Positions 14,100 to 52,076 of a stretch of 63,008 bases of DNA are shown one piece after another (within the stretch, counting starts at the first letter, position 1; each line of letters opens with the position of its first letter). Under the pieces are notes generated by a model, which saw nothing but the letters and a program-made list of their open reading frames with translations, made no database searches and had not been told where the DNA came from. The DNA is from Clostridia bacterium (GTDB taxonomy: Bacteria > Bacillota > Clostridia > Christensenellales > UBA1242), in NCBI GenBank assembly GCA_017523305.1, contig JAFWWV010000077.1, forward strand, positions 1 to 63,008, in the 5' to 3' direction. Made by a program: the position numbers and the translations under genes.

Positions 14100-14120
14100 T
14101 TGCAAAAAAAAGGAGATTTT

Positions 14121-17740: not shown

Positions 17741-17745
17741 GAAAT

Positions 17746-17988
17746 ATGAAAATAAATTATAAAGAAGCACACAAACATTCTACTAATAATATGGAAGAAA
17801 TAAAACAAAGTAACACTTGTGGTTGCTTTTATTGTAAGGAAATTTTTGCACCAACAGAAATCAAAAATTGGCTAGGAAATACTGCACAATGTCCATATTG
17901 TTTAGTGGATTCTGTTATAGGAAATAAGAGTGGTTTTACCATTACAAATCAGTTTTTAGATATGATGAAAAAGCATTGGTTTAAATAA
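17746..17988 (+). CDS. Small Cys4 zinc-binding 'cytoplasmic protein' family member
   Basis: 'CGCFYCKEIF...I..W...TAQCPYCLVDSVIG...G..IT..FL..M..HWF'. This matches a widespread small family whose function I cannot name. Confidence 0.5.
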   Translation: MKINYKEAHKHSTNNMEEIKQSNTCGCFYCKEIFAPTEIKNWLGNTAQCPYCLVDSVIGNKSGFTITNQFLDMMKKHWFK

Positions 17989-18018
17989 TTCTATATAATA
18001 TATTATAATATAAATATA

Positions 18019-18050
18019 AACCTATTAGATTTAGTCTGATAGGTTTTTTT
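18019..18050 (+). terminator. Intrinsic terminator closing the 17-18 kb cassette
   Basis: CCTATTAGA / TCTGATAGG stem (one G-T), 5-nt loop, T7. Confidence 0.75.
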
Positions 18051-18143: not shown

Positions 18144-18172
18144 TTGACATTTTTAGTTCTTTGTGTTATTAT
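18144..18172 (+). promoter_or_regulatory. Sigma-A-type promoter of the 22-kb operon
   Basis: TTGACA 18144-18149, 17-nt spacer, TATTAT 18167-18172. It lies 6 nt downstream of the last operator. Confidence 0.65.
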
Positions 18173-18204
18173 ACTTATAGCAAAATTAGTATGAGGTGAA
18201 ATTT

Positions 18205-18564
18205 ATGGTAACAGAAATTGGAAAGTTCTTAAGAGTTATTAGAGCTGAAAGAGGCGAGTCTGCTAGGGATATGGCCGAGAAAATGAATGTTTCGGCTTCA
18301 TATTTGTCTGCTGTAGAACTTGGTAGGAGAGAATTTCCTTTGGCTTGGGAGCAAACCTTAATCGAAGTCTATAACTTAAATGAGGCAAACAAGAAAAAAT
18401 TGCAAAAAGCAATAAAGGATTCAAAAACCAATGTAAAGTTTGACCTTAATGAAGTTGGCAACAAGAAAAAGGACTTAATACTTTCAGTTGCGAAGAATAA
18501 CCTTGATGACAAAACGATTGAACAGCTTTGCGAAATTATTAAAAAATATGAAGGAGACAAATAA
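18205..18564 (+). CDS. XRE-family HTH transcriptional regulator
   Basis: 'IGKFLRVIRAERGESARDMAEKMNVSASYLSAVELGRR' is a classic XRE HTH. AGGTG 6 nt before ATG 18205. Confidence 0.85.
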   Translation: MVTEIGKFLRVIRAERGESARDMAEKMNVSASYLSAVELGRREFPLAWEQTLIEVYNLNEANKKKLQKAIKDSKTNVKFDLNEVGNKKKDLILSVAKNNLDDKTIEQLCEIIKKYEGDK

Positions 18565-18565: not shown

Positions 18566-19222
18566 ATGGAAAAATTGATTGCATTAAAAAAAGAAATTGG
18601 AAATGATGTTGTTGTATGGAGTACAGGGGCAGTAAAAATTGATAAGAATACTGCAATCAGTGTTCCAATCAACTATAGAGTAGTTGCCTTGATTGATGGC
18701 AAGATTGCTTTTAGGGTAGACCCTTGCAGTGAAGTAAACATTATCAAGGAATTCGGTAAAGAACTTCTTAAAAAACAAATTGAATTTATTTATGTATTAA
18801 GTAGTGCAATTCCTATGATGAGTTGGGGATTTGGTAACATTAACGTAAATAATGACAGACTTAAAGAAGCATACAGAGTTGGTGCTAACGGAAAATATTC
18901 AATAGAAATAGTTGATATTCCAAAATTGATTAAGAATTTTGCAGGCAAGGCTGAAATTACAATTGATGATATAAGAGAAAAGACCGTTACAATTATCAAA
19001 GCAAACGGAACACAAGTTGTAAGTAAGTATTTCGCTAATACAACAACAAGTGTATTTGAGATAGACTCAAAAATCGGTGAAATAAGAGTTGATATTAAAG
19101 AAGCATTAGTAGATGAACTTTTATTTAAAAACTTTGGCTTGAAGATGACAGACCTTATTGTTGAAGGAATTCACGTAAATGAAGATGACCTACAAGTTAT
19201 AAGAGATAGGTTAAATGGTTAG
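18566..19222 (+). CDS. SPFH/Band-7 protein of the YdjI type (Band_7_1-like)
   Basis: By eye it is collinear with B. subtilis YdjI. Examples are 'KIDKNTAISVPINYRVVALIDGKIAF', 'SWGFGNINVNNDRLKEAYRVGANGKYSIEIVD' and the C-terminal 'FGLKMTDLIVEGIHVNEDD'. Starts 2 nt after the XRE stop. Confidence 0.6.
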   Translation: MEKLIALKKEIGNDVVVWSTGAVKIDKNTAISVPINYRVVALIDGKIAFRVDPCSEVNIIKEFGKELLKKQIEFIYVLSSAIPMMSWGFGNINVNNDRLKEAYRVGANGKYSIEIVDIPKLIKNFAGKAEITIDDIREKTVTIIKANGTQVVSKYFANTTTSVFEIDSKIGEIRVDIKEALVDELLFKNFGLKMTDLIVEGIHVNEDDLQVIRDRLNG

Positions 19223-19232
19223 GAGGAAAAAT

Positions 19233-20297
19233 ATGAAAAAATATACACCATCAGTTCAAACAAACAATAATTTAAAGAATGAAATTGCAGAAGAACTTAA
19301 TGCAATTATCTTCAAACTTGAAAAAGGTAAATACAATAAGAACTTGGATTCTTCAGCAGTTGCAGGTATTGTTGCTCAATTAAGAGAAGATTACGAAACT
19401 CTTACTAATGCAATTGGTAACGGAAAAGAAGATATTAATAATATCTACACAAAAACAAAGAAATACATTGAAGCATTGAAACAAGAAATTGAACAAACTC
19501 TTACTACAAAACTTGAAAAAGCAGTAGAAGATTTGTCATTCACAGTTAATATGTGGACAGAAGTATTAAATGGAAATCTTGTAGATGTTGACGCAGATGA
19601 AACAAAAGTTAAATTGAGTTGGTCAAAGAAAAGACTTAATGCAAAACTTCAAGAATTAAGATTAATCAAACTTGATTATCAAAAGAATGAACAAAGAATT
19701 GAAGGCGATATTAAGGGAATTGAAAAAGAACTTGCTGAACTTGAAAACAAGATGGTTGCCGAAGAAAATGAAAGAATTATAAATGAACTTTATAGACAAA
19801 TCACAGCAGCTAAAAGCAAGATTGACGCCTTAAATATCAGAAGGGGTAACTATTCAGTTTGCTTTAACTTAATTGATATGATTGATGTAAATATCAATGA
19901 AATTGTTATGGCAGGTGAATATGCTACATCTGAACTTAACAAGGCTAAAGGAATGCTTAATATGGGTAGAATTAGAGAAACTGCTGTAAACCCTGAAAAA
20001 GCAATTCCTATCTTAAGAGTTCTTCAAGATGACTTAAATAAGATTAATGAAAAAGTAAAATCTGTTGACAATAAAATCTTTGGTAGAGTAGAAGGTCAAG
20101 CAACAATTACAAATGACGCTATGAACTACAAAGAAGAACTTATGAGAAAGAAAAGAGAAAAAGAACAATTAGCAAATGCTATGAGTGAAATGGATACAAA
20201 GTTGGCTAATCCAACAGTTGCTGCTGAACCTAAAAAAGCAACAACAGAAGATTTCTTAAAAGCATTAGATGATTTAAACGGTGGGGAGGATAAATAA
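19233..20297 (+). CDS. Coiled-coil protein (355 aa), possibly PspA/ESCRT-III-superfamily-like
   Basis: Almost entirely heptad-like helical sequence. Acidic amphipathic tail 'EDFLKALDDLNGGEDK'. AGGAGG RBS. Confidence 0.4.
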   Translation: MKKYTPSVQTNNNLKNEIAEELNAIIFKLEKGKYNKNLDSSAVAGIVAQLREDYETLTNAIGNGKEDINNIYTKTKKYIEALKQEIEQTLTTKLEKAVEDLSFTVNMWTEVLNGNLVDVDADETKVKLSWSKKRLNAKLQELRLIKLDYQKNEQRIEGDIKGIEKELAELENKMVAEENERIINELYRQITAAKSKIDALNIRRGNYSVCFNLIDMIDVNINEIVMAGEYATSELNKAKGMLNMGRIRETAVNPEKAIPILRVLQDDLNKINEKVKSVDNKIFGRVEGQATITNDAMNYKEELMRKKREKEQLANAMSEMDTKLANPTVAAEPKKATTEDFLKALDDLNGGEDK

Positions 20298-20298
20298 G

Positions 20299-20889
20299 AT
20301 GGCATTTTTCAAAACAAAACAAGAAAAAGAAATAATCGCTAAAATGGAACGCGAAGAACAAATGGAAACTTTCAACGAACAAATTAATGAGTTGAAAAGT
20401 AAAAGACAAGAATATGCTAAAATTGCTGCTGAAGCTGAAGTAAATGGTGATACAGGTTCTTATGATGTTGCTGTTAATGCTTTGCTTGAAATGAATGATG
20501 TTATTAGTTCATTAATGCAAACAAAAACAAACTTTGATATTATCAATGTTTCAAATTCAATTGCAGTAACAATGGCAACAGCTATGAATGCTTTGGATAA
20601 AATGGCAAGTGGTAAAGCAAAAATGCCTAACTTAAGAAAAATCCAAAGAACTCAAGTTAAGATGAACAAATATATGAGAGAAATTAAGATTGCTCAAAAA
20701 GCTATGGGTAGCGCTATGAAGCAATCTAACCCTGCAAATAAGACAAGGTCCCCAGAAGCATTGGCTTCAGTAAGACCACTTATCGAAGCGGAAAGAGCAA
20801 AATTATCGCCAACAATGTCTACATCTGTTGGTGCTGATAGCATTAATTTAGCTGAAGAAATCGAAAGAGAAAAGAATAGAATTATTTAA
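20299..20889 (+). CDS. ESCRT-III/Snf7 (CHMP)-like protein
   Basis: Size (196 aa) and helix pattern match ESCRT-III. The N-terminus is a basic helix. Then come 'AEAEVNGDTGSYDVAVNALLEMNDVISSLMQTKTNFDII', 'AVTMATAMNALDKMASGKAKMPNLRKIQRTQVKMNKYMREIKIAQKAMGSAM', a Pro/Ser linker and an acidic amphipathic tail 'INLAEEIEREKNRII'. Assignment by eye only. Confidence 0.55.
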   Translation: MAFFKTKQEKEIIAKMEREEQMETFNEQINELKSKRQEYAKIAAEAEVNGDTGSYDVAVNALLEMNDVISSLMQTKTNFDIINVSNSIAVTMATAMNALDKMASGKAKMPNLRKIQRTQVKMNKYMREIKIAQKAMGSAMKQSNPANKTRSPEALASVRPLIEAERAKLSPTMSTSVGADSINLAEEIEREKNRII

Positions 20890-20903
20890 TCAAGGAGTTT
20901 TCT

Positions 20904-22043
20904 ATGAGTACTGTAATGCAGGTTGAAGCATATAAAAGTTTTTACGAACAAGGAATGAGTGCTTATGATTGTGGTGATGTTTTAAAAGCAAGAGAACTGC
21001 TTTTAAAGGCTGCTGAAATGGCTAATGAAATATCAACTAAATCAGTTTCTTACCAAGTTAAAACAGAGTATAGAAATATTGCTATGAAAATCCTTAATTT
21101 TGTAAAGACAAAATGTGGAAATGAACCACAAAAAAAGGCTGTTAAGTCTGGTGAAACTAAATCAAGTGGTGATGAAGAAAAGACAACAAACTTCCAACCT
21201 GTAAACAATGATGAGAAAATCACTTTTGAAGATGTTGCAGGGTTGCAGGAGGTTAAAGAAGAAATCGAATTTAAAGTTCTTAACCCTTTAAAAAATCCTG
21301 AATTGGCTAAAAAATACAAAATCAATGCAGGTGGAAAACTTCTTCTTTATGGACCACCGGGAACAGGTAAGACCTTTATTGCAAGAGCAATTGCAGGTGA
21401 GGTAGACGCTGTATTTTACTCAATCAATTGTCAAGATTTGATTAGTAAATATATGGGTGAAAGTAGTAAACAATTAGATAAATTGTTTGAAACTGCTTTA
21501 AAAAATGAAAGAGCAATCATCTTCTTTGATGAGTTCGACTCAATTGCTACTAAAAGAGAAAGTAGTAGTGGTGGTGTTGACGCTGAAATGTCAAGATTTG
21601 TTGCCACTTTCTTAACAAAAGTAGATGGATTTACAAAATCTAAAACAAACAAGATGTTGTTACTTATTGCTGCCACAAATAGGCCTTGGGCTCTTGATAA
21701 CGCTATGATTAGAGGTGGAAGATTTGATACTCATATTTATGTAAGTGTACCAGATTCAAATGCTAGAAGATTTATGGTTGAAAAGGCATTTAGAGATGTT
21801 CCAATGAATAGTAATTTTGATTACGCAAAATTGACCGAAATGCTTGATGGTTTTGGTGGTGGTGATATTGTTGCTATTTGTGAAAAAATAAGACTTAAGG
21901 CTTATAAGAAGTCAATTAGAACCGGTGTTGAAGAAAAGGTTTCTATGGAAGATTGCTATGATGTCCTTGCTAAACACCATAATGTTATAACAAGAGAAGA
22001 AATCGAAAGATTTGAAAATTTTCAAAATGGAGATATGGATTAA
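20904..22043 (+). CDS. Classical AAA ATPase (Vps4/katanin/Cdc48 clade) with N-terminal MIT-like three-helix domain
   Basis: The N-terminal ~75 aa are helical ('AYDCGDVLKARELLLKAAEMANE...YRNIAMKILNFVK'), followed by a low-complexity linker. 'FEDVAGLQEVKEEI', Walker A 'GPPGTGKTF', pore loop 'KYMGES', Walker B 'IIFFDEFD', SRH 'ATNRPWALDNAMIRGGRFD'. Confidence 0.75.
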   Translation: MSTVMQVEAYKSFYEQGMSAYDCGDVLKARELLLKAAEMANEISTKSVSYQVKTEYRNIAMKILNFVKTKCGNEPQKKAVKSGETKSSGDEEKTTNFQPVNNDEKITFEDVAGLQEVKEEIEFKVLNPLKNPELAKKYKINAGGKLLLYGPPGTGKTFIARAIAGEVDAVFYSINCQDLISKYMGESSKQLDKLFETALKNERAIIFFDEFDSIATKRESSSGGVDAEMSRFVATFLTKVDGFTKSKTNKMLLLIAATNRPWALDNAMIRGGRFDTHIYVSVPDSNARRFMVEKAFRDVPMNSNFDYAKLTEMLDGFGGGDIVAICEKIRLKAYKKSIRTGVEEKVSMEDCYDVLAKHHNVITREEIERFENFQNGDMD

Positions 22044-22871
22044 ATGATATACGAATTAACAAAATGTAAAGTATGTGGTTCGGAAGATTTAGTACAAACC
22101 GATAAAGAAATTGTTGGTCTTGATACTTACATTGTTTATAGATGTAAGTCTTGCGACTCAATCGTTTCAAAGGAAAGACCTAGAAAAACATCTGTAAAAG
22201 AAGAAAATAACACTTCTAAACCTGTTTTTAGTGGGGTTGAGATAAGTCCTGCGGAATTGTATGAAAAGAACCATAAAACACTATATTCTATCAATAGTGT
22301 ACTTGAAAATGAGGATAGAAGTTGTGGAACTGCTTTTGCAATAGGAAGTAATGGTTATCTTCTAACAAATGCACATGTTGTTACAAGAGTTAGTTCTGAA
22401 GAAGATGGTGAAGTTAATTTTGAAATTAATGATGATATAACTGCTACATCATTTAATGGTGAGGTTGCAGATTGTGAGTTAATTGACCTAGATTTAGTTT
22501 TAGATTTAGCTTTGCTTAAGATAAACAAAAGAAATAACTATTCAGTTAAACTTGGTTCTTACGAAACAGTTAAGACAGGTGAAAAAGTTGTTTCTATTGG
22601 AAATAGTAAAGGTGAAGGAATGTCTATCACAGAAGGTCTAGTAAGTGATAGAGCAAGAAATTTAGGAAATCAAACAAAGATTTTGATAAGTGTGCCAATT
22701 AATCACGGAAATAGTGGTGGACCTTTATTTAATATGAAAGGTCAAGTAATTGGTGTTGTTGCTTCAGGTAAAAAGAATGCAGTTGCTATGAGCTATGCAA
22801 TTCCGGTTGATGAAGTACTAAAATTTATCAAAAGAATTGAAGTAGACCAAGAAATTAAAGTATTAAATTAA
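22044..22871 (+). CDS. Cytoplasmic Zn-ribbon fused to a trypsin-like (S1/HtrA-type) serine protease, no PDZ domain
   Basis: 'CKVCGS...CKSCDS'. Catalytic His 'LTNAHVV', Asp 'DLALLKI', Ser 'GNSGGPLF'. No signal peptide or TM. Its ATG abuts the upstream stop (TAAATG). Confidence 0.8.
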   Translation: MIYELTKCKVCGSEDLVQTDKEIVGLDTYIVYRCKSCDSIVSKERPRKTSVKEENNTSKPVFSGVEISPAELYEKNHKTLYSINSVLENEDRSCGTAFAIGSNGYLLTNAHVVTRVSSEEDGEVNFEINDDITATSFNGEVADCELIDLDLVLDLALLKINKRNNYSVKLGSYETVKTGEKVVSIGNSKGEGMSITEGLVSDRARNLGNQTKILISVPINHGNSGGPLFNMKGQVIGVVASGKKNAVAMSYAIPVDEVLKFIKRIEVDQEIKVLN

Positions 22872-22883: not shown

Positions 22884-24176
22884 ATGTCAGTAAATCAAGA
22901 AAAGGAATTTTGTAACAAGAAGTTTAAAGAAGCAATTGTTTACGCTAGAAGGAAAGATGTAAAGAATTGTAGAAGTGCTTTGTTTGTTGTAATGGAATCA
23001 TTACTTAAGATTTCATATCAATTAAAGGGTAATGAAAAAACTGAATGTGAAGAAAAAATTAAATTTATATTAGAAATGGCAAAGACAATTGCTAATGAAG
23101 GTTTTACTGACGATGTTATGTTTAACCTTACTGGTGAATTGCCTAAAAAAGAAGTTGTAGAAAAGAAAGAAATAGTTGAAGAACAAATTGCTCAACCAAC
23201 TGAAATCGAAGATGAGGAAGAATTTGAGGATAACAAGACAAATAATCCTTTAAGACCTACAAGATTAAGAGATTATGTTGGGCAAGACAAAATTAAAAGG
23301 CCTTTGGCTGAAGCAATTTTGGCTGCTAGAACAAAACAAACATCATTAGACCATGTATTGCTGTTCGGTTCTGCAGGTTTAGGTAAAACAACATTAGCAA
23401 GAATTATTGCAAATGAGATGAAATCAAACATTATTGTAATGAATGGACCAACAATTAAGGATACAAATGATTTCATTAAAAATATTAAACAATTAAAAGA
23501 AAATGATATTGTATTTATAGATGAAATACACCGTATTAGCACTAGCGCTGCGGAATCTATATATACTGCTATGGAAGATTTCAAACTTTCATATATAAGA
23601 AACGATGGTAAAAATGTTGAAATGGATTTACCAAAGTTTACATTAATTGGTGCAACTACTCACTCTGGTTTGTTAGAAAAACCTATGAGAGATAGATTTG
23701 CTTTACAATTTAGACTTGAACCATATTCTGTAGATGTGCTTACTCAATTAGGTGTTAAGTCGTTTGAAAAACTTGGATTTAATATTTCGGAAGCTGATAT
23801 GAAAAATATTGCTAAAAGAAGTAGAGGAGTTCCAAGAATTTGTAATGGATTTATCAAGAGAATTTCTGATAAAGCATTAATAAGAAACACGAATGTTATT
23901 GATAAAAAGATTATTGAAGAATACTTTATTGATAACGAAATAGATAGTCTTGGATTAAATGCAGGTGATATTCATCTTCTTAAGACTATAATTAATAAAT
24001 TCAATGGTGGTCCGGTTGGACTTGATACATTAGCTTCGGCTACTGGTGAAGGCAAAAACATCATTGAAAATCAGTATGAACCATACCTAATATATCTTGG
24101 CTTTATAAACATCACACAAAATGGTAGGGTTGCAACTGAACAAGCATACAAACATTTAAAGATTGAAAAATACTAG
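22884..24176 (+). CDS. RuvB-paralog AAA+ ATPase with ~125-aa N-terminal MIT-like helical extension and acidic linker
   Basis: From 'LRPTRLRDYVGQDKIK' onward it is collinear with RuvB. It has Walker A 'GSAGLGKTT', Walker B 'IVFIDEIHR', 'LIGATT', 'RDRF', 'RGVPRI' and the winged-helix 'GGPVGLDTLA...EPYLI..GFI..T..GR'. The N-terminal extension is helical, then 'EIEDEEEFED'. Confidence 0.8.
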   Translation: MSVNQEKEFCNKKFKEAIVYARRKDVKNCRSALFVVMESLLKISYQLKGNEKTECEEKIKFILEMAKTIANEGFTDDVMFNLTGELPKKEVVEKKEIVEEQIAQPTEIEDEEEFEDNKTNNPLRPTRLRDYVGQDKIKRPLAEAILAARTKQTSLDHVLLFGSAGLGKTTLARIIANEMKSNIIVMNGPTIKDTNDFIKNIKQLKENDIVFIDEIHRISTSAAESIYTAMEDFKLSYIRNDGKNVEMDLPKFTLIGATTHSGLLEKPMRDRFALQFRLEPYSVDVLTQLGVKSFEKLGFNISEADMKNIAKRSRGVPRICNGFIKRISDKALIRNTNVIDKKIIEEYFIDNEIDSLGLNAGDIHLLKTIINKFNGGPVGLDTLASATGEGKNIIENQYEPYLIYLGFINITQNGRVATEQAYKHLKIEKY

Positions 24177-24194: not shown

Positions 24195-27100
24195 ATGGAT
24201 AAGAATATTTGTAATATCTGTGGTGGCAGTTATGTTTACAAGAATGGCAAATGGATTTGCTCTTGTTGTGATAATGTTAGACAAGATGAGATAACCAATG
24301 AAGAATTGGTTCTTTTGGCTAATGCTGCGACCAAATTGAGAATGGCAGATTTCGATAGTGCAGAAGAATTATATATGGACTTTGTAAAAAAATATCCTAA
24401 AAATTCTGAAGGTTACTGGGGACTTCTTTTATCTAAATATGGTATTAAGTATGAAGATGATTTTGACGGAAAGAAAATTCCTACAGTTTATGCTACTAGC
24501 ATTGAAAGTGTTTTAAATGATGAAAACTATAAGAAAGCAATCGCTTTAGCTGATAAAGAAACTGAAAAATACTATAAACAACAAGCAAATAAATTTGAAA
24601 GTATTAGACAAGAATGGGTTGAAAAGGCTTCAAAAGAACAACCTGTAGACATCTTTATCTGTTATAAAGATAGTGATGAAGAAAAAGATATTGCAAGAAC
24701 AGATGATAGTTATGAAGCTCAAAACCTTTATACATATTTAATGTCAAAAGGATACTCTGTATTCTTTAGTAGAGAAAGTTTGCGTGATAAAGTTGCTGAA
24801 AAATATGAACCATATATTTTCAATGCTTTAAATACCGCACACGTTATGATAGTTTATTCATCTTCCAAAGAATATTTGGAATCTACTTGGGTTAAGAATG
24901 AATGGACTAGATTTTTAAAGAAAATTAAAAATAAACAAAAACAAGAGAACTCACTTATCTTGGCTTTCGATAAAATGAAACCAAGTGATTTTCCAAAGGT
25001 TTTCTCAAATGTTCAATGTATGAATGCTTCGCAAAAAACATTCTATTCTGACCTTGAGAAACATATTCAAAAAGTAATTAAAAAAGCTACTGCGCCAATT
25101 ACAAGATTGGAAAGAGTAGAAGTAAAAGAAAATGTTAGACATAAAAGAGCTAAAAAACTTGATACTGATATTGCTAAAAGAGAAATTGGCTCATATAATG
25201 TTGAACAATTGACTGGTGATGAAGAAACTCAACTTAAGACTGCTTATAAATTCTTAAATAGGGGATTATTTGCAGACGCTGATGAAATCATCACAAAAAT
25301 CCTTGATAAAAACTCAAGAAATGGACAAGCAATTCTATGTAAGTTACTTGTTAATCTTGAAGCAAAAAACATTGAGGAATTAGAAAATCACATTGATGAA
25401 AATGTTGATTTTGATGAACTTGAAAACTCAATTGGCTATTCAAATAAAGATGTTGCTTTACAAATTCTTTCAGCGCTTAAAAATGCTTGCATAAATGAAT
25501 TTAATGCTGATAACAATGAATTTGCTTTACAATTGGCTGATTTTATTTGTAGATACAATGTTGAAGATGTCAATTTTAATAATAGAATTAATGAAGTTAT
25601 CACACATTTAGTAATTAAAGATGAAATTGAATGTGCAGATAAACTTGTACGAACTCTTTTAAGAACTCTTACAGATAACACCGATAGTTATTTGGAAGAA
25701 GTAGAAAAGACAATTGATACATTTAAAAAACAAGGTCATTTTGATATTGCAAGTAAATATGTAGATGAATATTTGGAAATTTATCCAACTAGCCACAAAA
25801 TGTTGTGGAAGAAAATATCTATTGACCTTAAATGTAAAAATGAAGTTGAATTAACAAGTAATATATTCAAACTTGAAGATATTTCAGTTTTTGAGAAAAT
25901 TCTTGAATGTACAAAAGCAGGACAAGAAAGAGATGGATATATTGAAAAACTTTTAAATATAATTCAAAAATGTGTTGAAGAAGTTACATCTAGTGAAGAT
26001 TTCTCAAAATGTTGTGATGTTTTTGATAAAATAATCAAATATACAACACAAGATGAAAAATATGTAAAATTAATATTTAGATATGCTGAAAATTGCCAAG
26101 AAAAAGGCCAATTTACACATGCTGAAAAGTACTATGCAATTGTTATTGGTGAAGATGAACAAAATCATAATGCTTATTGGAAACTATTACAATCCAAACT
26201 TAAAGTTAAAAACAACAAAGAATTAATTGAACAACCTGTAATAATTACAACTCTTTCAGAATTTCATAGTGCTATTGTTGCTACCGGTGATGATGAAAAG
26301 AGTGCTGATAGATATATTGACCTTAAAGCAAAACAGCTTGAATATATTGAAAAACAAAAAATATTAAAGGCAAAGAAAAAACACCAAAGAAAAGTTATGT
26401 CTATCTTTGCTGCCTGTCTTGCTGTAATTTTCGCTATTGGTGTAGGTTTATATGGTTGGAATCTATATTATAAATCACAAAACCAATTGCTATACACTTT
26501 AGAAGATGGAACCTATTCTGTTAGAGCAGGTAAGTATTATGATGAAAAATATATTACAATACCTGCAACATATAACGGTAAACCTGTTACAGAAATAGAT
26601 GAGAATGCATTCCAAAATAAAAATGTTCAAATTGTTTCAATTCCTAATACAATTGAGAAAATTTCAAACAATGCATTCAATGGTTGTGATGACTTAACAA
26701 AGGTAGAATATTATTCTGCAAATAACAATAGTAGAGCATTAGCAACTAATTCTTCAATGGAAACAATTGGTGATTATGCATTCTACAATTGCACTAAATT
26801 AGAAGATATTCAATTATCAAATAGTTTAACATATTTGGGTAAATATGCTTTTGCTAATTGCTTAAGCCTTAACGAAATAACAATTCCAAATACATTAGAA
26901 AATATCTTGGAAGGAACTTTCAAGAATGCATTTAATAGTAATGTAGAAAGTATTTCAATTCCAAAAGAAGTTGAATTTATTGGAAAAGACGCTTTCGATT
27001 GCAATATTGAAAATGTATTAGTGGACGAAAGAAATTCAATTCCAACAAATTGGGATACTGATTGGTGTGGAAATTCTTCTGAAATTGAAGTATTGTGGTC

Positions 27101-30100
27101 TATTCCATTAACTTTTAATTATGAAGGTGCTACAGCTAATATTGGTGCAACAAAAATATCAGTTGTGTATGGCAGACCATTTGAATGTCCGGTTCCAACA
27201 AAACTTGGTTACATCTTTGATGGTTGGTTTGGAATGAATGGCACTGAAGAAGTTCAGTATGCAGGCCCTGATGGTTTATCTATTGAAAATTGGAGTGAAA
27301 CCACATCAAAAACTGTATATGCTAAATGGACACCTAATAATAACACATTGATTTACAATGGAAATGGTGCAACTTCTGGTGATATGGAAAACCATATTAT
27401 TGCAACAGATTCAAGTGATAACTTAAAAACAAATGAATTTGTTAAAGCAGGATATACTTTCATAGGTTGGTCTACAACATCTAATGGTGAGGTAGAATAC
27501 GAAGATGGTGCAATTTATGAGATGGGGACTAATTCTTCTTATAATTTGTATGCTATTTGGACACCAAACACAAATGAAATTGTTTATAACGGAAATGGCG
27601 CTACTTCTGGCTCTATACCAAATCAACAAATTAAATCAGACGCAACTGCAAATCTTTATTCAAATATGTTCTTAAGAAATGGATATTCTTTTGCAGGTTG
27701 GTCTACATCTCAAAATGGTGAAGTGGTTTATGAAGATGGTGCAACCTATACAATGGGGACTAACTCATCTTATACACTTTATGCTGTTTGGGATATAGAA
27801 ACTTATGTTTGTTCAGTTAAATTAAACGGTGGTTCAATTGGACATGTTACAAGTATTCCATTCAATATCACATCTGAAGATTATGTGATTGGTACACCTA
27901 CAAAAGCAGGATACACTTTCACAGGCTGGAGCAGTAAATTGTTTAGTGGAAAGGTTATGACCTACACAATTGAACAAGGTACTTATACAAGCTTTACTTT
28001 GGAAGCAAATTGGGAAGCAAACACTAATAACATAATATTTAATGGAAATGGTGCAACTTCTGGTTCTATGGAAAACCAAGAAATAAAGACAAATCATTCT
28101 GCTTCATTAAGTATAAATCAGTATCAAAGAACAGGTTATAGATTTTTAGGTTGGTCTACAACATCTAATGGTGAGGTAGAATACGAAGATGGTGCAACTT
28201 ATACAATGGGTACTAATTCTTCTTATACACTTTATGCTGTTTGGGATAACTCAAGCACTGTGTTATTTAATGGAAATGGACATACTTCTGGTTCTATGGA
28301 AAGTATTCAAACAACAACTCTTTCTACTATAGAAGTTCCAAATAACTCATTTGTTAAAACTGGATACACATTCTTGGGTTGGTCTACAACTCAAAATGGT
28401 TCATCAGATGACATAATTGATTATTTGCCGGGTGAAAACTTTACAATTGGTACTGAAATTTCAAACACCTTATATGCTGTTTGGGAAGAAGGTAACATCT
28501 ATGTTATCTATGACACTGAAACATTGAAAGGGGTAGTTGAAGAAGTAATTGATTTTGCCAACTATGACAAATATTTAATGATTAGAGATATTGACCTTAA
28601 TAATGAAGAATGGACACCTATTGGTGAAATTTCAGCATTTTCAGGTACATTTGATGGAAATGGACATGTAATTAAAAACTTAAAGATTACTGAATTTTCA
28701 ACTGAAATCGGATTATTTGCTGTAAATTACGGAACAATCTGCAATTTAGGATTAGAAAATGTTAATATTGATATGCTTTGTACCTTAAGACAAGATAATG
28801 TTTATGTAGGAACAATTGCAGGAAGAAATGAAGGAACTATTTATAATTGTTTTGTAGATGGTGGAACTTTAAAAACAGACGCTAACTATATTGGTGGATT
28901 TGTAGGATATATGGGAAGAAGTTCTGCTTATGACCAAAGTATTACCGATTGTTATGCTTCACTTGATATTACCATAATTGCTAGGGGTAGTGGAACAACA
29001 TCATTTGAATATAGAAGATGTGGTGGATTTGTTTGTGATGGACAAGGTTCAATTTCTAATTGTTTTGCAAATTGTAACATCTATATTGATTTGCAATCAG
29101 AAGATTATCAAACATTCTCTTGTGGAAAGTTTATAGGAATTAACTTACCTTTAACAACACATACAAATAATTTCTATGCTGCTGAAACTGTTATACCTAC
29201 AAATGCAGATGGAATTTATGATAATGTTGTAAGTCCTAATTACGGAACAGAGACAAATCAATCTAATTTCTATAATAAAACTTGGGTTGAAGCTAATTTG
29301 TTTACAGCAAATGAATGGACTTATTCAGAAACAAAATTACCAAGAGTAAAACCAACCACTAAATCTATGGTTATTTACAATGGAAATGGTGCAACTACTG
29401 GTGATATGTTAACTGAATTTATAACTGCAAATACACATAATTTGACAACTAATTCTTTTGTAAGAGATGGTTACACATTTAAAGGTTGGTCTACAACTCA
29501 AAATGGAAGTGTGAATTACAATAATAATGGCTCATTAACAACTGTAGAAGGTCAAACAAAATATGTTTTATATGCTGTTTGGGAAGCAAACACAAATAAT
29601 ATCATATTTAATGGAAATGGACACACTTCTGGTTCTATGTCAAATCAACAAATTAAAACTGATAAATATGCTTCATTAAGTATAAATCAGTTCAAAAAGA
29701 CAGGCTACACCTTTAAGGGTTGGTCTACAACTCAAAATGGTGAAGTGGAATTTGTTGATGGTGCAACCTATACAATGGGTACCAACTCATCTTACACACT
29801 TTACGCTGTTTGGGAAGGTAATACTAATACAATTATTTTTGAAGGTAATGGCTCATCAAATGGTTTAATGGAAAACCAAACTGCTAAATCAGGACAAACA
29901 ATAACACTTGCGCTTAATCAATATGAAAAGCAATATAGTCGTTTCTTGGGTTGGGCAACAAGTGCTGATGGTGAAGTGGTTTATGAAGATGGTGCAACCT
30001 ACACAATGGGTACTAACTCATCTTATACACTTTATGCTAAATGGGGTAAACAATTAAAACAAATTACATCACTTGAAACTATTAGATATGATGTTCAATC

Positions 30101-30962
30101 TGGAATGGATTATTACACTGAATATGTATTGATGTGTGATATAGACCTTAATAATGAAGAATGGACACCTATTGGTAAAAATACAGTTCAATATAATGAC
30201 CCTAAAACATTTGATGGAATTTTTGATGGAAATGGACATACAATTTCTAATTTAAAAATAACATCTTATGAAACTCAATATGTTGGGCTTTTTGGATTTA
30301 GTGAAGGCATTATAAAAAATGTTAAAATTGAAAATTTAAACATTAATTTGACTGTAGGTGTTACTGTTTGGTGTGGTGGTATTGTCGGCCAAACTTGGGG
30401 TGATGTTGAAAATTGTAGTGTATCTGGAACAATAACATTAAGACAAGGATATGCACAAAGTGGAAGCAGTATTGTTGGAGGTATTGTTGGAGTAAGTAAT
30501 GGAAATAATGGAAAAATTATAAATTGCTACTCAAATGTTCAAATAGATGTTGTTGCAAGTCAAAACGCTTCGGCAGGCGGAATTGCAGGAAGTAATACTG
30601 CATTAATTAAAAATTGTTATTCAGCAGGAAATATTGTTGCTGTAGGTAATGGTACTTATTCAAGTACTAATGTTACTGTTAGAGCTGGTGGTATTTCTGG
30701 AGTAAATTCAGGAGAAATTAATAGTTGTTTTGCAATTGGTAACATGTCAACTTTATCTGCACATAGTTACTATGGTTATGCAGGTGGTATAGTTGCAAAT
30801 GATAATGGTGGAACATATACAAATAATTATCGTTCAAACCAACAAACAGTAAATCCTACTTCGCCGGGAACAGGTGAAATGATAACAATAAATCAAACTG
30901 GTACAGTTATTTCACTTTCAACAATTAAAACATCTAACTTTATTTTCAATACTTTAAACTAG
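24195..30962 (+). CDS. Giant type-II membrane protein: cytoplasmic Zn-ribbon + TPR-like + TIR + helical stalk, one TM, ectodomain of BspA-type LRR, Flg_new (Listeria-Bacteroides) repeats and GLUG blocks
   Basis: Zn ribbon 'CNICGG...CSCC' (aa 6-25). TIR aa ~151-290 (nt 24645-25064): 'VDIFICYKDSDEE', 'GYSVFFSRESL', 'VMIVYSS..Y..STWVKNEW'. TM aa 734-757 (nt 26394-26465), preceded by 'KAKKKHQRK'. LRR_5-like 26500-27000. 'GYTF.GWST...G.V.Y.DGA.Y.MGTNSSY.LYA.W' repeats at 27100-28490 and 29360-30050. 'GG(I/F)(V/A)G' GLUG blocks at 28490-29350 and 30050-30960. Ends at an in-frame TAG (see findings). Confidence 0.85.
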   Translation: MDKNICNICGGSYVYKNGKWICSCCDNVRQDEITNEELVLLANAATKLRMADFDSAEELYMDFVKKYPKNSEGYWGLLLSKYGIKYEDDFDGKKIPTVYATSIESVLNDENYKKAIALADKETEKYYKQQANKFESIRQEWVEKASKEQPVDIFICYKDSDEEKDIARTDDSYEAQNLYTYLMSKGYSVFFSRESLRDKVAEKYEPYIFNALNTAHVMIVYSSSKEYLESTWVKNEWTRFLKKIKNKQKQENSLILAFDKMKPSDFPKVFSNVQCMNASQKTFYSDLEKHIQKVIKKATAPITRLERVEVKENVRHKRAKKLDTDIAKREIGSYNVEQLTGDEETQLKTAYKFLNRGLFADADEIITKILDKNSRNGQAILCKLLVNLEAKNIEELENHIDENVDFDELENSIGYSNKDVALQILSALKNACINEFNADNNEFALQLADFICRYNVEDVNFNNRINEVITHLVIKDEIECADKLVRTLLRTLTDNTDSYLEEVEKTIDTFKKQGHFDIASKYVDEYLEIYPTSHKMLWKKISIDLKCKNEVELTSNIFKLEDISVFEKILECTKAGQERDGYIEKLLNIIQKCVEEVTSSEDFSKCCDVFDKIIKYTTQDEKYVKLIFRYAENCQEKGQFTHAEKYYAIVIGEDEQNHNAYWKLLQSKLKVKNNKELIEQPVIITTLSEFHSAIVATGDDEKSADRYIDLKAKQLEYIEKQKILKAKKKHQRKVMSIFAACLAVIFAIGVGLYGWNLYYKSQNQLLYTLEDGTYSVRAGKYYDEKYITIPATYNGKPVTEIDENAFQNKNVQIVSIPNTIEKISNNAFNGCDDLTKVEYYSANNNSRALATNSSMETIGDYAFYNCTKLEDIQLSNSLTYLGKYAFANCLSLNEITIPNTLENILEGTFKNAFNSNVESISIPKEVEFIGKDAFDCNIENVLVDERNSIPTNWDTDWCGNSSEIEVLWSIPLTFNYEGATANIGATKISVVYGRPFECPVPTKLGYIFDGWFGMNGTEEVQYAGPDGLSIENWSETTSKTVYAKWTPNNNTLIYNGNGATSGDMENHIIATDSSDNLKTNEFVKAGYTFIGWSTTSNGEVEYEDGAIYEMGTNSSYNLYAIWTPNTNEIVYNGNGATSGSIPNQQIKSDATANLYSNMFLRNGYSFAGWSTSQNGEVVYEDGATYTMGTNSSYTLYAVWDIETYVCSVKLNGGSIGHVTSIPFNITSEDYVIGTPTKAGYTFTGWSSKLFSGKVMTYTIEQGTYTSFTLEANWEANTNNIIFNGNGATSGSMENQEIKTNHSASLSINQYQRTGYRFLGWSTTSNGEVEYEDGATYTMGTNSSYTLYAVWDNSSTVLFNGNGHTSGSMESIQTTTLSTIEVPNNSFVKTGYTFLGWSTTQNGSSDDIIDYLPGENFTIGTEISNTLYAVWEEGNIYVIYDTETLKGVVEEVIDFANYDKYLMIRDIDLNNEEWTPIGEISAFSGTFDGNGHVIKNLKITEFSTEIGLFAVNYGTICNLGLENVNIDMLCTLRQDNVYVGTIAGRNEGTIYNCFVDGGTLKTDANYIGGFVGYMGRSSAYDQSITDCYASLDITIIARGSGTTSFEYRRCGGFVCDGQGSISNCFANCNIYIDLQSEDYQTFSCGKFIGINLPLTTHTNNFYAAETVIPTNADGIYDNVVSPNYGTETNQSNFYNKTWVEANLFTANEWTYSETKLPRVKPTTKSMVIYNGNGATTGDMLTEFITANTHNLTTNSFVRDGYTFKGWSTTQNGSVNYNNNGSLTTVEGQTKYVLYAVWEANTNNIIFNGNGHTSGSMSNQQIKTDKYASLSINQFKKTGYTFKGWSTTQNGEVEFVDGATYTMGTNSSYTLYAVWEGNTNTIIFEGNGSSNGLMENQTAKSGQTITLALNQYEKQYSRFLGWATSADGEVVYEDGATYTMGTNSSYTLYAKWGKQLKQITSLETIRYDVQSGMDYYTEYVLMCDIDLNNEEWTPIGKNTVQYNDPKTFDGIFDGNGHTISNLKITSYETQYVGLFGFSEGIIKNVKIENLNINLTVGVTVWCGGIVGQTWGDVENCSVSGTITLRQGYAQSGSSIVGGIVGVSNGNNGKIINCYSNVQIDVVASQNASAGGIAGSNTALIKNCYSAGNIVAVGNGTYSSTNVTVRAGGISGVNSGEINSCFAIGNMSTLSAHSYYGYAGGIVANDNGGTYTNNYRSNQQTVNPTSPGTGEMITINQTGTVISLSTIKTSNFIFNTLN
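27330..28488 (+). repeat. Tandem coding repeats (about 231 nt / 77 codons, Flg_new-type), approximate limits
   Basis: The first two units start at 27330 and 27561 (231-nt period). Long shared strings such as GGTTGGTCTACAACATCTAATGGTGAGGTAGAATACGAAGATGGTGCA recur at ~27470 and ~28150. A second block lies at ~29359-30048. Confidence 0.65.
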
Positions 30963-31023: not shown

Positions 31024-31683
31024 ATGGTAACACAACAAGAATTGCAAAATCTAATACAACGTTTTATAAGAAATATTGAGGATTTGCAATCAATAGTAAA
31101 AAAAGACTATTTAACGGTCAATTCAGACCTTGAAGAACAAGCAAATAATGCTAGTGAACAAGAGTATAATCGACTAATTGAGATTTATACTAGTGAGAAT
31201 GATGATATATCGGCTTTATTAGATAAATCTCAAGAGGTTGGTTTGGAAAAATACTTATTACTTAAAGTAATGAGATATAGGAATCTTGCAAATTGGATAT
31301 GTAATGTAATTGAAATTTGGGAACAACAAATGTATTTGTTATATTCCGAAATAAAGCAAGATGGTAGAAAATTTAATAATTTTAATCAATTAGTTAAAGA
31401 AATTGAAAATTTGGGATTGCAAATTAGTGGTATGATAGAGTATCATAATTTGGAAAATAAAAGACTATTGGTTAATGTTATAAAACATTCAGAAGGTACT
31501 TCTGAAGAAAAATTAAGAAATGAGTGTCCTAAATATTTTGATAATTCGACAGAATTATTTGGGGATATGGATAATCTTAAAACATACAAAACTTCTTTAG
31601 GTGAAGTTGCATTAAACATTACTGAAGAAGATTTTGATGAAACTTGCTTTCAAATAATAGATTTTTGGAAAGCAATATTGTAA
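31024..31683 (+). CDS. Hypothetical cytoplasmic protein (219 aa) between the two TIR giants
   Basis: Clean ORF in operon context. No TM and no motif I recognise. Confidence 0.55.
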   Translation: MVTQQELQNLIQRFIRNIEDLQSIVKKDYLTVNSDLEEQANNASEQEYNRLIEIYTSENDDISALLDKSQEVGLEKYLLLKVMRYRNLANWICNVIEIWEQQMYLLYSEIKQDGRKFNNFNQLVKEIENLGLQISGMIEYHNLENKRLLVNVIKHSEGTSEEKLRNECPKYFDNSTELFGDMDNLKTYKTSLGEVALNITEEDFDETCFQIIDFWKAIL

Positions 31684-31700
31684 TACAAAGGAGAGCTTTA

Positions 31701-52074: not shown

Positions 52075-52076
52075 AT

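What the first reader, a model, noticed from the sequence alone, without database searches (positions are those of the whole stretch)
18566..22043. ESCRT-III/Snf7-like protein with a Vps4-like MIT-AAA ATPase next to a YdjI-type SPFH protein
The 196-aa ORF (20299-20889) shows the CHMP-like order: a basic helix, a long helical hairpin, 'AMNALDKM...MPNLRKIQRTQVKMNKYMREIKIAQKAMGSAM', a Pro/Ser linker and an acidic amphipathic tail. The next gene is a classical AAA ATPase whose first ~75 aa look like a three-helix MIT domain. In eukaryotes and archaea, MIT domains of Vps4/CdvC bind C-terminal MIM helices of ESCRT-III. Here both the Snf7-like protein ('INLAEEIEREKNRII') and the preceding coiled-coil protein ('EDFLKALDDL') end in acidic amphipathic tails. 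Two ATPases in the operon carry MIT-like N-domains. The SPFH neighbour echoes the B. subtilis pspA-ydjGHI operon, where YdjI helps recruit PspA (an ESCRT-III superfamily member) to the membrane. A Snf7/Vps4-style pair, rather than PspA alone, is unusual in a Bacillota-type genome.
Basis: partly seen in the sequence, partly recalled or inferred. Interest (0 to 1): 0.78.

Follow-up and report, generated by a model that had tools for sequence, protein, structure and literature searches.

The report
Bacterial ESCRT-III-like protein with MIT-domain ATPases
A conserved operon in gut Firmicutes pairs a very divergent ESCRT-III-like helical protein and an SPFH protein with ATPases carrying Vps4-type MIT-like domains, a pairing the literature says bacteria lack; here it is wired to TIR-domain transmembrane giants and a protease.

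Summary
They open a tightly packed operon that starts at a promoter-like site near 18.15 kb.

**ESCRT-III-like protein (196 aa).** It matches no Pfam, NCBIfam, PHROG or PADLOC model. A profile of its family hits CdvB first (E=2.9e-4) and CHMP3 second among 177,635 PDB sequences. hhalign against CHMP3 aligns 143 columns in register, about 5.6 sd above shuffled controls. The AlphaFold helix order and the top Foldseek hits are ESCRT-III, with weak E-values.

**ATPases.** The neighbouring AAA ATPase has a confidently modelled three-helix N-domain. Its top six Foldseek hits are Vps4 or CdvC MIT domains. Its motor is closer to Cdc48-D2/PAN than to Vps4. A homologous N-domain sits on the RuvB-like ATPase of the operon. 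In distant operons it sits on classical or SpoVK-type AAA motors.

- The hairpin is acidic and helix 3 is basic.
- The coiled-coil protein's 'EDFLKALDDL' tail is not conserved.
- The operon also encodes a Zn-ribbon trypsin-like protease and two TIR/TPR/TM/LRR giants.

**Spread.** 38 species-level loci, all from gut Bacillota-type MAGs apart from two differently labelled ones.

**Verdict.** This is a new, divergent ESCRT-III/MIT-ATPase-type module in bacteria. Binding and polymerisation are untested.

The parts
18018..18046 (+). terminator-like hairpin closing the upstream gene; left boundary of the operon
   Evidence: 13-bp stem followed by a T-run
18144..18172 (+). promoter-like site (TTGACA-17-TATTAT with TG) upstream of the HTH gene
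   Evidence: 11 of 12 matches. Consensus match only.
18196..18564 (+). XRE-type HTH protein, first gene of the operon
   Evidence: Pfam HTH_31 1.1e-8. Present in 22 of 28 loci with enough upstream DNA.
18566..19222 (+). SPFH protein of the Band_7_1 (YdjI-type) family, 218 aa, no Zn ribbon
   Evidence: Pfam PF13421 8.7e-10, 39 bits against a cut-off of 24. Present in 28 of 28 loci. Some orthologues carry a long C-terminal extension.
19215..20297 (+). 360-aa coiled-coil protein. Conserved N-terminal MKKYTPSVKNNN motif and C-terminal helix DAL.YKEELMRKKREKE. Family-specific, not ESCRT-III-like.
   Evidence: Present in 28 of 28 loci. The profile hits only generic coiled coils in PDB. hhalign gives P=0.26 against CHMP3 and 0.38 against the 196-aa family.
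20299..20889 (+). 196-aa ESCRT-III-like protein (E3L), the most conserved gene of the operon
20299..20316 (+). N-terminal MAFFKT motif, resembling CHMP3 MGLFGK. Possible membrane-insertion motif.
   Evidence: M1, F3 and K5 are invariant in close homologues. CHMP3 N-termini from database sequences.
20317..20604 (+). Predicted helical hairpin (residues 7-49 and 52-102) with tip motif AAEAEVNGD. Acidic.
   Evidence: AF2 secondary structure. Aligned to the CdvB and CHMP3 hairpins. Charge.
20632..20724 (+). Strongly basic helix 3 (residues 112-142, net +8), followed by the near-invariant SNPAN motif (20725-20739)
20848..20886 (+). Conserved C-terminal amphipathic tail (D/N)L.xEIxxEKNRII after a variable Pro/Ser/Thr linker. 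Candidate MIM-like element.
   Evidence: Binding not tested.
20904..21119 (+). MIT-like three-helix N-domain of AAA1 (residues 1-72)
   Evidence: AF2 pLDDT 86, helices 3-22, 26-46 and 50-71. Foldseek top hits are Vps4/CdvC/MITD1/calpain-7 MIT domains, TM up to 0.8. Sequence level shows TPR-like hits only.
21120..22043 (+). Acidic linker plus a single classical AAA cassette. Walker A GPPGTGKT, Walker B IIFFDEFD, pore loop KYMGE, SRH RGGRFD, C-terminal helix.
   Evidence: Pfam AAA 2.6e-39. Best matches are Cdc48 D2 and D1, and PAN.
22044..22871 (+). Zn-ribbon plus trypsin-like (HtrA-type core) serine protease. Usually directly follows AAA1.
   Evidence: Pfam Trypsin_2 5.5e-26. Adjacency in other loci.
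22884..24176 (+). RuvB-type ATPase with an N-terminal domain (residues 1-95, 22884-23168) homologous to the AAA1 N-domain
   Evidence: NCBIfam RuvB 362 bits against a cut-off of 282. N-domain alignment with AAA2 of other loci. hhalign to the AAA1 N-domain gives probability 84%, E=8e-6.
24195..30962 (+). 2255-aa giant: Zn ribbon, TPR, TIR, long helical region, TM segment, then LRR_5, Flg_new and GLUG repeats
   Evidence: Pfam TIR_2 1.5e-10, LRR_5 9e-27, Flg_new 6e-63. A TIR giant is present in 23 of 25 loci.
31024..31683 (+). 219-aa ORF without any family match, between the two giants
31644..40244 (+). Second TIR/TPR/TM/LRR_5/Flg_new giant (2866 aa)

Best explanation
The region encodes a bacterial module that works like ESCRT-III plus Vps4, built from very divergent parts.

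**Proposed mechanism (inferred)**
- The 196-aa protein (E3L) is a remote member of the ESCRT-III superfamily. It is expected to polymerise on the cytoplasmic face of the membrane, together with the Band_7_1 SPFH protein and the 360-aa coiled-coil protein.
- Its conserved C-terminal amphipathic tail, behind a flexible linker, is the most likely handle for the MIT-like three-helix N-domains of the operon's ATPases.
- Those ATPases are a Cdc48-like AAA and a RuvB-type ATPase here, and classical or SpoVK-type AAAs elsewhere. They would use ATP to pull subunits out and so remodel or recycle the polymer.
- The module is co-transcribed with TIR-domain, single-pass transmembrane giants carrying extracellular LRR and Listeria-Bacteroides repeats, and with a Zn-ribbon trypsin-like protease. 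The whole is most likely an envelope-associated conflict or stress system, in which membrane remodelling or repair is coupled to TIR signalling.

**Shown:** gene order, conservation, profile-level and fold-level similarity, and constancy of the N-domain across motor swaps.

**Inferred:** polymerisation, membrane binding, tail-MIT recognition, ATP-driven disassembly and the biological role.
For: **E3L resembles ESCRT-III**
- The family profile against all PDB sequences gives CdvB first (E=2.9e-4, low bias) and CHMP3 second.
- hhalign against a CHMP3 alignment scores 27.2, P=0.0026, with 143 columns in register (residues 23-165). Reversed decoys score 15-16. Sixty column shuffles give mean 13.3, sd 2.5, max 21.5.
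- The other coiled-coil protein of the operon gives P=0.26 in the same test.
- AF2 predicts helices 7-49, 52-102, 112-142, 152-169 and 184-194.
- Most of the top Foldseek PDB hits are CHMP2A/3, CdvB, CHMP1B, Asgard ESCRT-IIIB, PspA and Vipp1.
- The N-terminus MAFFKTKQEK resembles CHMP3 MGLFGK. The tail is conserved even in members about 25% identical.

**MIT-like domains on the ATPases**
- The N-domain model has pLDDT 86. The six best Foldseek hits are Vps4 or CdvC MIT domains. MITD1, calpain-7, NRBF2 and katanin follow, with TM 0.66-0.8.
- The NCBIfam CdvC model aligns over residues 17-374.
- The N-domain of the RuvB-like ATPase and of AAA2 in other loci is homologous (probability 84%).
- In operons whose E3L is only about 25% identical, the adjacent ATPase still matches the N-domain HMM (E=1e-7 and 1e-5), although one has a SpoVK/CbbX-type motor.

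**Linkage and SPFH precedent**
- The SPFH-PspA precedent is YdjI (PMC10936438, PMC11237479).
Against: - No Pfam Snf7, PspA_IM30 or MIT hit for any family member.
- hhalign probability is only 11.7%.
- A CHMP3 HMM does not significantly retrieve E3L from 817 locus ORFs.
- Foldseek E-values are weak: 0.025 or worse for E3L, with model pLDDT 66, and 0.13 or worse for the N-domain.
- Charge polarity is inverted relative to CHMP3.
- The ATPase motor is closer to Cdc48 D2/PAN than to Vps4. By my reading of the sequence it has an RGGRFD second region of homology, and the Pfam Vps4_C match is below cut-off.
- AAA1 is most often directly followed by the protease, and it hits PADLOC IetA models at 5e-44 from residue 38 on. 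The N-domain's partner could therefore be something other than E3L.
- No binding, polymerisation or membrane data exist.
Confidence: 0.5

Rival explanations
1. The functional core is an IetAS-like ATPase-protease defence pair (AAA1 plus the Zn-ribbon trypsin-like protease) working with TIR effectors. The MIT-like domains are generic TPR-like adaptors. They would recognise the protease, the TIR giants or an invader protein. E3L, the coiled-coil protein and SPFH would be scaffolds or sensors, not an ATPase-remodelled ESCRT-type polymer.
For: - PADLOC IetA models hit AAA1 at 5e-44, with the alignment starting at residue 38, inside the N-domain.
- The protease directly follows AAA1 in most loci.
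- TIR giants are present in 23 of 25 loci.
- The window context looks like a defence island and an ICE: a GIY-YIG protein hitting PD-T4-3, a UvrD-family helicase, a PAPS-reductase-family protein with a cysteine desulfurase, and MobL with T4SS genes.
- At sequence level the N-domain matches only TPR models.
Against: - NCBIfam IteA scores 127 bits against a cut-off of 510.
- The partner protease is trypsin-like. IetS, from my own knowledge, is subtilisin-like.
- This reading does not explain why SPFH, the coiled-coil protein and E3L are the invariant core (28 of 28 loci), why E3L is the most conserved gene, or why E3L specifically resembles ESCRT-III.
- The N-domain persists across three motor types next to E3L, even where gene order changes.
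Confidence: 0.25
2. A PspA/YdjI-type envelope stress module: E3L acts like PspA, recruited by the SPFH protein to damaged membrane. ATP-driven disassembly plays no role, and the ATPases serve other operon functions.
For: - Band_7_1 SPFH lies in the same operon, one gene upstream.
- PspA and Vipp1 are among the Foldseek hits.
- The pspA-ydjGHI precedent is described in PMC10936438 and PMC11237479.
Against: - No PspA_IM30 Pfam hit.
- Sequence and fold hits rank CdvB and the CHMPs above PspA and Vipp1.
- The strict co-occurrence with MIT-like ATPases over deep divergence is left unexplained.
Confidence: 0.12
3. E3L is an unrelated helical or coiled-coil protein, for example a BAR- or eisosome-like scaffold. 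Its ESCRT-III similarity would then be a by-product of long amphipathic helices.
For: - Weak Foldseek E-values, with Lsp1/Pil1 and I-BAR among the hits.
- Low hhalign probability.
- The reverse HMM search is not significant.
- Model pLDDT is only 66.
Against: - The two best of 177,635 PDB sequences are both ESCRT-III, with low bias.
- The score is about 5.6 sd above shuffled and reversed controls, while the operon's true coiled-coil protein shows nothing.
- The alignment runs in register over 143 columns and includes the hairpin-tip G-D motif.
Confidence: 0.1

Closest known systems
Archaeal CdvB/CdvC (ESCRT-III/Vps4) and eukaryotic CHMP/VPS4
   Same: - A ~200-aa protein with a helical hairpin core, flexible linker and amphipathic C-terminal tail, encoded next to an ATPase with an N-terminal three-helix MIT-type domain, a linker and one classical AAA cassette.
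- CdvB and CHMP3 are the best sequence hits for the helical protein. Vps4 and CdvC MIT domains are the best fold hits for the N-domain.
   Different: - No Pfam Snf7 or MIT match.
- Charge polarity of the core is inverted.
- The motor is nearer Cdc48-D2/PAN.
- The MIT-like domain also sits on RuvB-type and SpoVK-type motors.
- No ESCRT-I, ESCRT-II or CdvA. The partners are SPFH, a coiled-coil protein, a trypsin-like protease and TIR giants.
- The host is bacterial, whereas reviews place ESCRT-III+Vps4 systems only in archaea and eukaryotes (PMC10936438, PMC7619361).
Bacillus subtilis pspA-ydjGHI (PspA with the SPFH protein YdjI)
   Same: An ESCRT-III-superfamily protein is encoded with a Band_7_1 SPFH protein in a Firmicute. 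Zn-ribbon proteins occur in the same operon.
   Different: - E3L is not PspA by Pfam, and its hits rank CdvB and the CHMPs above PspA.
- The SPFH protein here lacks the C-terminal Zn ribbon described for YdjI (PMC11237479).
- No TPM-domain YdjH.
- MIT-like ATPases, a protease and TIR giants are present.
VPS4-like AAA+ ATPases transferred to bacteria (Popp et al. 2024, PMC11237479)
   Same: A bacterial AAA ATPase with Vps4-like architecture.
   Different: In the described cases snf7 is replaced by a TPR-6TM protein. Here an ESCRT-III-like gene is retained in the same operon, and the motor is not Vps4-type by sequence.
IetAS anti-phage system (AAA ATPase plus protease)
   Same: A classical AAA ATPase directly followed by a serine protease. 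PADLOC IetA hits AAA1 at 5e-44.
   Different: AAA1 scores below the NCBIfam IteA cut-off. The protease is trypsin-like with a Zn ribbon. At least six further conserved genes belong to the operon.

Membership tests
ESCRT-III / Snf7 (Pfam PF03357) | Match to the Snf7 family model | tested here: not met
   No Snf7 hit at E<=10 for the window protein or any of 26 family members.
ESCRT-III superfamily | Profile-level sequence similarity to established members | tested here: met
   Family profile against PDB: CdvB E=2.9e-4, CHMP3 second. hhalign against CHMP3 gives P=0.0026 over 143 columns, about 5.6 sd above shuffles.
ESCRT-III superfamily | α1-α2 hairpin followed by α3-α5 and a C-terminal tail helix | tested here: inconclusive
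   The AF2 helix order fits, and most Foldseek top hits are ESCRT-III. However, model pLDDT is 66 and E>=0.025.
ESCRT-III superfamily | Basic N-terminal core and acidic C-terminal half | tested here: not met
   Hairpin net charge is -3 and -3. Helix 112-142 is +8. CHMP3 shows the opposite polarity.
ESCRT-III superfamily | Self-assembly into membrane-bound filaments, rings or spirals | not testable with these tools
   Needs EM or liposome assays.
ESCRT-III superfamily | C-terminal MIM bound by a MIT domain | tested here: inconclusive
   The conserved amphipathic tail (D/N)L.xEIxxEKNRII follows a variable linker. It is not a canonical MIM1, and binding was not tested.
PspA/IM30 (Pfam PF04012) | Match to the PspA_IM30 model | tested here: not met
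   No hit. PspA and Vipp1 appear only at Foldseek ranks 13 and below.
Vps4/CdvC | N-terminal MIT domain | tested here: inconclusive
   The fold matches: three helices, pLDDT 86, and the top six hits are Vps4 or CdvC MIT domains. There is no Pfam MIT hit, only TPR models.
Vps4/CdvC | Single classical AAA cassette with intact Walker A, Walker B and pore loop | tested here: met
   Pfam AAA 2.6e-39. GPPGTGKT, IIFFDEFD and KYMGE are read from the sequence.
Vps4/CdvC | The ATPase domain is closest to Vps4/CdvC (orthology) | tested here: not met
   NCBIfam scores: CDC48 209 bits, PAN 209, FtsH 196, CdvC 184 against a cut-off of 650. The PDB top 60 are Cdc48, p97 and AFG2 types. The C-terminal 100 aa is closest to p97 D2, then katanin.
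Vps4/CdvC | Vps4 C-terminal oligomerisation helix | tested here: inconclusive
   Pfam Vps4_C E=0.013, 15.9 bits against a cut-off of 21.3.
Vps4/CdvC | Encoded next to an ESCRT-III gene | tested here: met
   Adjacent in the window. Within 10 kb downstream in 20 of 25 loci.
SPFH, Band_7_1 subfamily (YdjI type) | Match to PF13421 above the gathering score | tested here: met
   8.7e-10, 39 bits against 24. Orthologues are annotated the same way.
IetAS defence system | IetA-family ATPase above the curated cut-off, with a subtilisin-like IetS partner | tested here: not met
   PADLOC IetA 5e-44, but NCBIfam IteA gives 127 bits against a cut-off of 510. The partner is Trypsin_2.
RuvB | Match to the RuvB equivalog model | tested here: met
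   362 bits against a cut-off of 282 over residues 113-428. It carries an extra MIT-like N-domain and sits in this operon, so a canonical Holliday-junction role is doubtful.

The most novel reading that the evidence does not exclude
Gut Firmicutes possess a genuine ESCRT-III/Vps4-type machine. E3L would form membrane polymers that MIT-domain ATPases of three different motor types disassemble through its C-terminal tail. This machine would service Toll-like (TIR, TM, extracellular LRR) receptors, for example by repairing or shedding membrane after immune activation. The coupling of ESCRT-type remodelling to innate-immune signalling would then exist in bacteria, either by ancient inheritance, by transfer or by convergent assembly.
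Probability: 0.3. Interest if true: 0.9.

Novelty: new variant of a known kind. Interest (0 to 1): 0.72.

Why it matters

A conserved bacterial operon with an ESCRT-III-like protein and MIT-like ATPases would matter in several ways.
- It gives a tractable test of whether ATP-driven ESCRT-type remodelling exists in bacteria.
- It offers a natural experiment in motor swapping: one recruitment domain on Cdc48-like, SpoVK-like and RuvB-like motors.
- It links membrane remodelling to TIR-based transmembrane receptors in abundant gut Firmicutes.
- It defines at least two unannotated protein families, E3L and the 360-aa coiled-coil protein.

Tried and rejected
- **Family libraries on E3L.** Pfam, NCBIfam, PHROGs and PADLOC gave nothing meaningful.
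- **E3L alone against PDB sequences.** Nothing.
- **Profile search of 1.84 billion representatives.** Only 45 clusters, all the same family, with no bridge to Snf7 or PspA.
- **CHMP3 HMM against 817 locus ORFs.** Not significant, although E3L orthologues are enriched near the top.
- **Coiled-coil protein as a second ESCRT-III or PspA-like protein.** Rejected.
- **Its 'EDFLKALDDL' tail as a MIM.** Rejected, because it is not conserved.
- **An extra gene between SPFH and the coiled-coil gene in some loci.** It is a C-terminal extension of SPFH.
- **N-domain sequence searches.** They gave only TPR-type hits. The N-domain homologue search returned only N-terminal fragments of orthologues and no other architectures.
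- **RuvB-like N-domain alone against PDB.** Nothing.
- **The search for related loci with the diverse alignment A2.** Failed. A1 was used instead.
- **Phage and plasmid collections.** No E3L homologue, and no meaningful DNA match for the operon.
- **Literature searches.** No description of this operon.

Full report
**Observation**

Shine-Dalgarno sequences precede the ATGs at 20299 and 20904. All homologues of the 196-aa protein start MAFFK, which fixes its start codon.

The genes are packed with 0-15 nt gaps or overlaps. A terminator-like hairpin (18018-18046) and an 11/12 promoter-like site (18144-18172) lie upstream of an XRE-type HTH gene (18196-18564). No + strand terminator-like site follows until 41289.

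The operon therefore runs in this order: HTH, SPFH, coiled-coil protein (CC360), the 196-aa protein (here called E3L), AAA1, a Zn-ribbon trypsin-like protease, a RuvB-like ATPase, TIR giant 1, a 219-aa ORF, and TIR giant 2.

**The 196-aa protein**

It matches no model in Pfam, NCBIfam, PHROGs or PADLOC. All named homologues are 'hypothetical protein'. The family is narrow: 626 proteins at 90% clustering, and 45 representative clusters in 1.84 billion proteins.

A profile that includes members down to 21% identity (A2) was searched against all 177,635 distinct PDB sequences. It gave S. islandicus CdvB as the best hit (E=2.9e-4, residues 18-103, bias 0.7) and human CHMP3 as the second (residues 19-132). 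Both alignments place the hairpin-tip motif AAEAEVNGD on VRAQVEGDD and AAKKGQKD.

I built a CHMP3 reference alignment from Pfam-Snf7-annotated database proteins. hhalign between the two families aligned 143 columns in register (23-165 against 36-183), with score 27.2 and P=0.0026, but probability only 11.7%. The controls were as follows.

| Comparison | Result |
|---|---|
| Reversed profiles | score 15-16 |
| 60 single-column shuffles of A2 | mean 13.3, sd 2.5, max 21.5 |
| 60 shuffles of A2 in 11-column blocks | mean 13.2, sd 2.2, max 20.4 |
| CC360 against the CHMP3 alignment | P=0.26 |

AlphaFold2 (pLDDT 66) predicts helices 7-49, 52-102, 112-142, 152-169 and 184-194. Most of the Foldseek top hits against PDB are CHMP2A/CHMP3, CdvB, CHMP1B, Asgard ESCRT-IIIB, PspA, Vipp1, Vps24 and Snf7. 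The best E-value is only 0.025, and Lsp1 and I-BAR also appear.

The reverse test was not significant: a CHMP3 HMM against 817 ORFs of the related loci did not retrieve E3L.

The N-terminus MAFFKTKQEK resembles CHMP3 MGLFGK(S/T). The tail (D/N)L.xEIxxEKNRII is conserved behind a variable Pro/Ser/Thr linker.

This is the opposite polarity to CHMP3.

My reading is that E3L is a remote ESCRT-III-superfamily member, closer to CdvB and the CHMPs than to PspA. This is supported at profile and fold level but not proven.

**The ATPases**

AAA1 has one classical AAA cassette (Pfam 2.6e-39) with intact motifs.

Its first 72 residues are conserved among orthologues. At sequence level they match only TPR models and not Pfam MIT. 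Modelled with 21 orthologue fragments, they form a confident three-helix bundle with pLDDT 86. The six best Foldseek hits are VPS4B, SKD1 and VPS4A MIT domains and the S. solfataricus CdvC MIT-CdvB complex. Calpain-7, NRBF2, MITD1 and katanin N-domains follow, with TM 0.66-0.8. E-values are 0.13 or worse, as expected for about 70 residues.

The motor itself is not Vps4-type.
- NCBIfam CDC48 and PAN models outscore CdvC.
- The PDB top hits are Cdc48, p97 and AFG2.
- The C-terminal 100 residues are closest to p97 D2, then katanin.
- From my own knowledge of AAA motifs, the RGGRFD second region of homology is of the Cdc48/PAN/FtsH kind. KYMGE and NRPW recall Vps4 and katanin.

The second ATPase is a bona fide RuvB homologue (362 bits against a cut-off of 282) with a 95-residue N-extension. 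This extension aligns with the N-domain of a classical AAA ('AAA2') that occupies the same operon position in other loci. It is homologous to the AAA1 N-domain (hhalign probability 84%, E=8e-6).

**Conservation**

Thirty-eight species-level loci were recovered. Nearly all are labelled as gut Clostridia, Christensenellales or Bacilli/Acholeplasmatales MAGs.

| Feature | Loci |
|---|---|
| SPFH upstream of E3L | 28 of 28 with enough upstream DNA |
| CC360 upstream of E3L | 28 of 28 |
| At least one MIT-like ATPase within 10 kb downstream | 20 of 25 with at least 9 kb downstream |
| TIR giant | 23 of 25 |
| Protease | 13 of 25 |

Gene order downstream of E3L varies, and the chromosomal neighbourhoods differ. 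E3L is the best conserved protein, at 58-71% identity against 29-49% for SPFH and CC360.

Two operons whose E3L is only about 25% identical keep the theme.
- L046: HTH, three unknown genes, E3L, then an AAA1-like ATPase.
- L047: trypsin, 270-aa and 403-aa proteins, E3L, an AAA with a SpoVK/CbbX-type lid, a RuvB-like ATPase, a TIR protein and a giant.

In both, the ATPase next to E3L matches the AAA1 N-domain HMM, at E=1e-7 and E=1e-5. The MIT-like domain is therefore the constant feature, and the motor is exchangeable. That argues that the domain recruits the motors to a common, conserved target in the operon. E3L, with its conserved tail, is the best candidate for that target. This last step is inference.

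**CC360 and SPFH**

CC360 has no ESCRT-III similarity. Its conserved C-terminal element is the helix DAL.YKEELMRKKREKE.

The SPFH protein is a Band_7_1 member above the Pfam cut-off. In several loci it carries a long coiled-coil plus a conserved C-terminal domain.

**Wider context**

Both giants have the same layout: an N-terminal Zn ribbon, TPR, TIR, a long helical region, one TM segment, and then extracellular LRR_5 and Flg_new repeats. The first also has GLUG repeats. This topology resembles Toll-like receptors.

AAA1 hits PADLOC IetA models (5e-44) but is below the NCBIfam IteA cut-off. The protease is trypsin-like with an intact His/Asp/Ser context.

In the window the operon lies between defence-island-like genes and conjugation genes. 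The former are a UvrD-family helicase, a PAPS-reductase/4Fe-4S protein with a cysteine desulfurase, and a GIY-YIG protein. The latter are a MobL relaxase, a coupling protein and a VirB4-like ATPase. Housekeeping genes for Lon and PBP2 lie at the left end.

**Mechanism and rivals**

The best-supported model is an ESCRT-III/Vps4-like module. E3L would polymerise at the membrane with SPFH and CC360. MIT-like ATPases would be recruited by its tail and would remodel it. The module serves a TIR- and protease-containing envelope conflict or stress system. Confidence is about 0.5.

The main rival is that the AAA1-protease pair is an IetAS-like defence core, and that the N-domains bind something other than E3L (0.25). 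A PspA/YdjI-type stress module without ATPase involvement (0.12) and a spurious helical similarity (0.1) are less likely.

**Comparison with the literature**

Makarova et al. [quoted passage not shown] A 2025 review says a Vps4-like ATPase appears absent in bacteria (PMC7619361). Popp et al. 2024 report VPS4-like transfers to bacteria in which snf7 is displaced, and PspA associated with a two-domain AAA+ protein (PMC11237479). None describes this operon, and other searches found nothing. No homologue exists in the phage or plasmid collections.

**Verdict**

I classify it as a new variant of a known kind: an ESCRT-III/MIT-ATPase-type pair in a bacterial, TIR-linked operon.

Noticed in passing
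window 24195-30962 and 31644-40244: Two giant proteins share a Toll-like-receptor-style topology. The cytoplasmic part has a Zn ribbon, TPR and TIR. One TM segment follows, then extracellular BspA-type LRR_5 and Listeria-Bacteroides (Flg_new) repeats; the first giant also has GLUG repeats. TIR giants accompany the operon in 23 of 25 related loci.
   Followed up: partly
window 22884-24176; L010 10587-11867; L047 10575-14089: Motor swapping. The same MIT-like N-domain is fused to a RuvB-type ATPase (window, L047), a classical AAA (AAA2 in other loci) or a SpoVK/CbbX-type AAA (L047). A RuvB homologue that passes the equivalog cut-off seems to have been recruited to a non-DNA-repair operon.
   Followed up: partly
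window 9144-16870: Upstream cluster: a 969-aa protein without Pfam match, a UvrD-family helicase (AddAB-like pair?), a PAPS-reductase-family protein with a 4Fe-4S motif, and a class-V aminotransferase/cysteine desulfurase. From my own knowledge this resembles DndC/DndA-type DNA-modification modules.
   Followed up: no
window 16973-17988: A 255-aa protein with weak GIY-YIG similarity that hits PADLOC PD-T4-3 (2.3e-6). A Cys-rich 80-aa ORF follows, just before the operon's promoter.
   Followed up: no
window 43213-56064: Conjugation genes downstream of the operon: a MobL relaxase, a TraG/VirD4 coupling protein and a VirB4/TraG-like P-loop ATPase. In this genome the operon may ride on an integrative conjugative element. 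Elsewhere it sits next to housekeeping genes (rpsO-pnp, dnaG-sigA).
   Followed up: partly
L018 7481-8974; L008 1366-2898; L030 6029-8164: In several loci the SPFH protein is 450-710 aa long. It has a coiled-coil extension and a conserved C-terminal domain (...VEMxPIVRFxKAGL...NKIRHxSxEN...GLYT). The L030 version has an internally repeated segment of about 78 aa. The window protein is the short form.
   Followed up: partly
window 20725-20739 (E3L residues 143-147): A near-invariant SNPAN motif lies between helices 3 and 4 of the ESCRT-III-like family. It is conserved even in members about 21-25% identical, and I found no counterpart in the CHMP3 alignment.
   Followed up: no
window 31024-31683 and 40381-40977: Two ORFs (219 and 198 aa) lie inside the apparent transcription unit. 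The 219-aa ORF has no Pfam match. The 198-aa ORF was not examined.
   Followed up: no
window 20904-22043 (AAA1 residues 38-357): The PADLOC IetA model and PHROG 3757 align from within the MIT-like N-domain onward. IetA-family and some phage AAA ATPases may therefore carry a related N-terminal helical domain.
   Followed up: no
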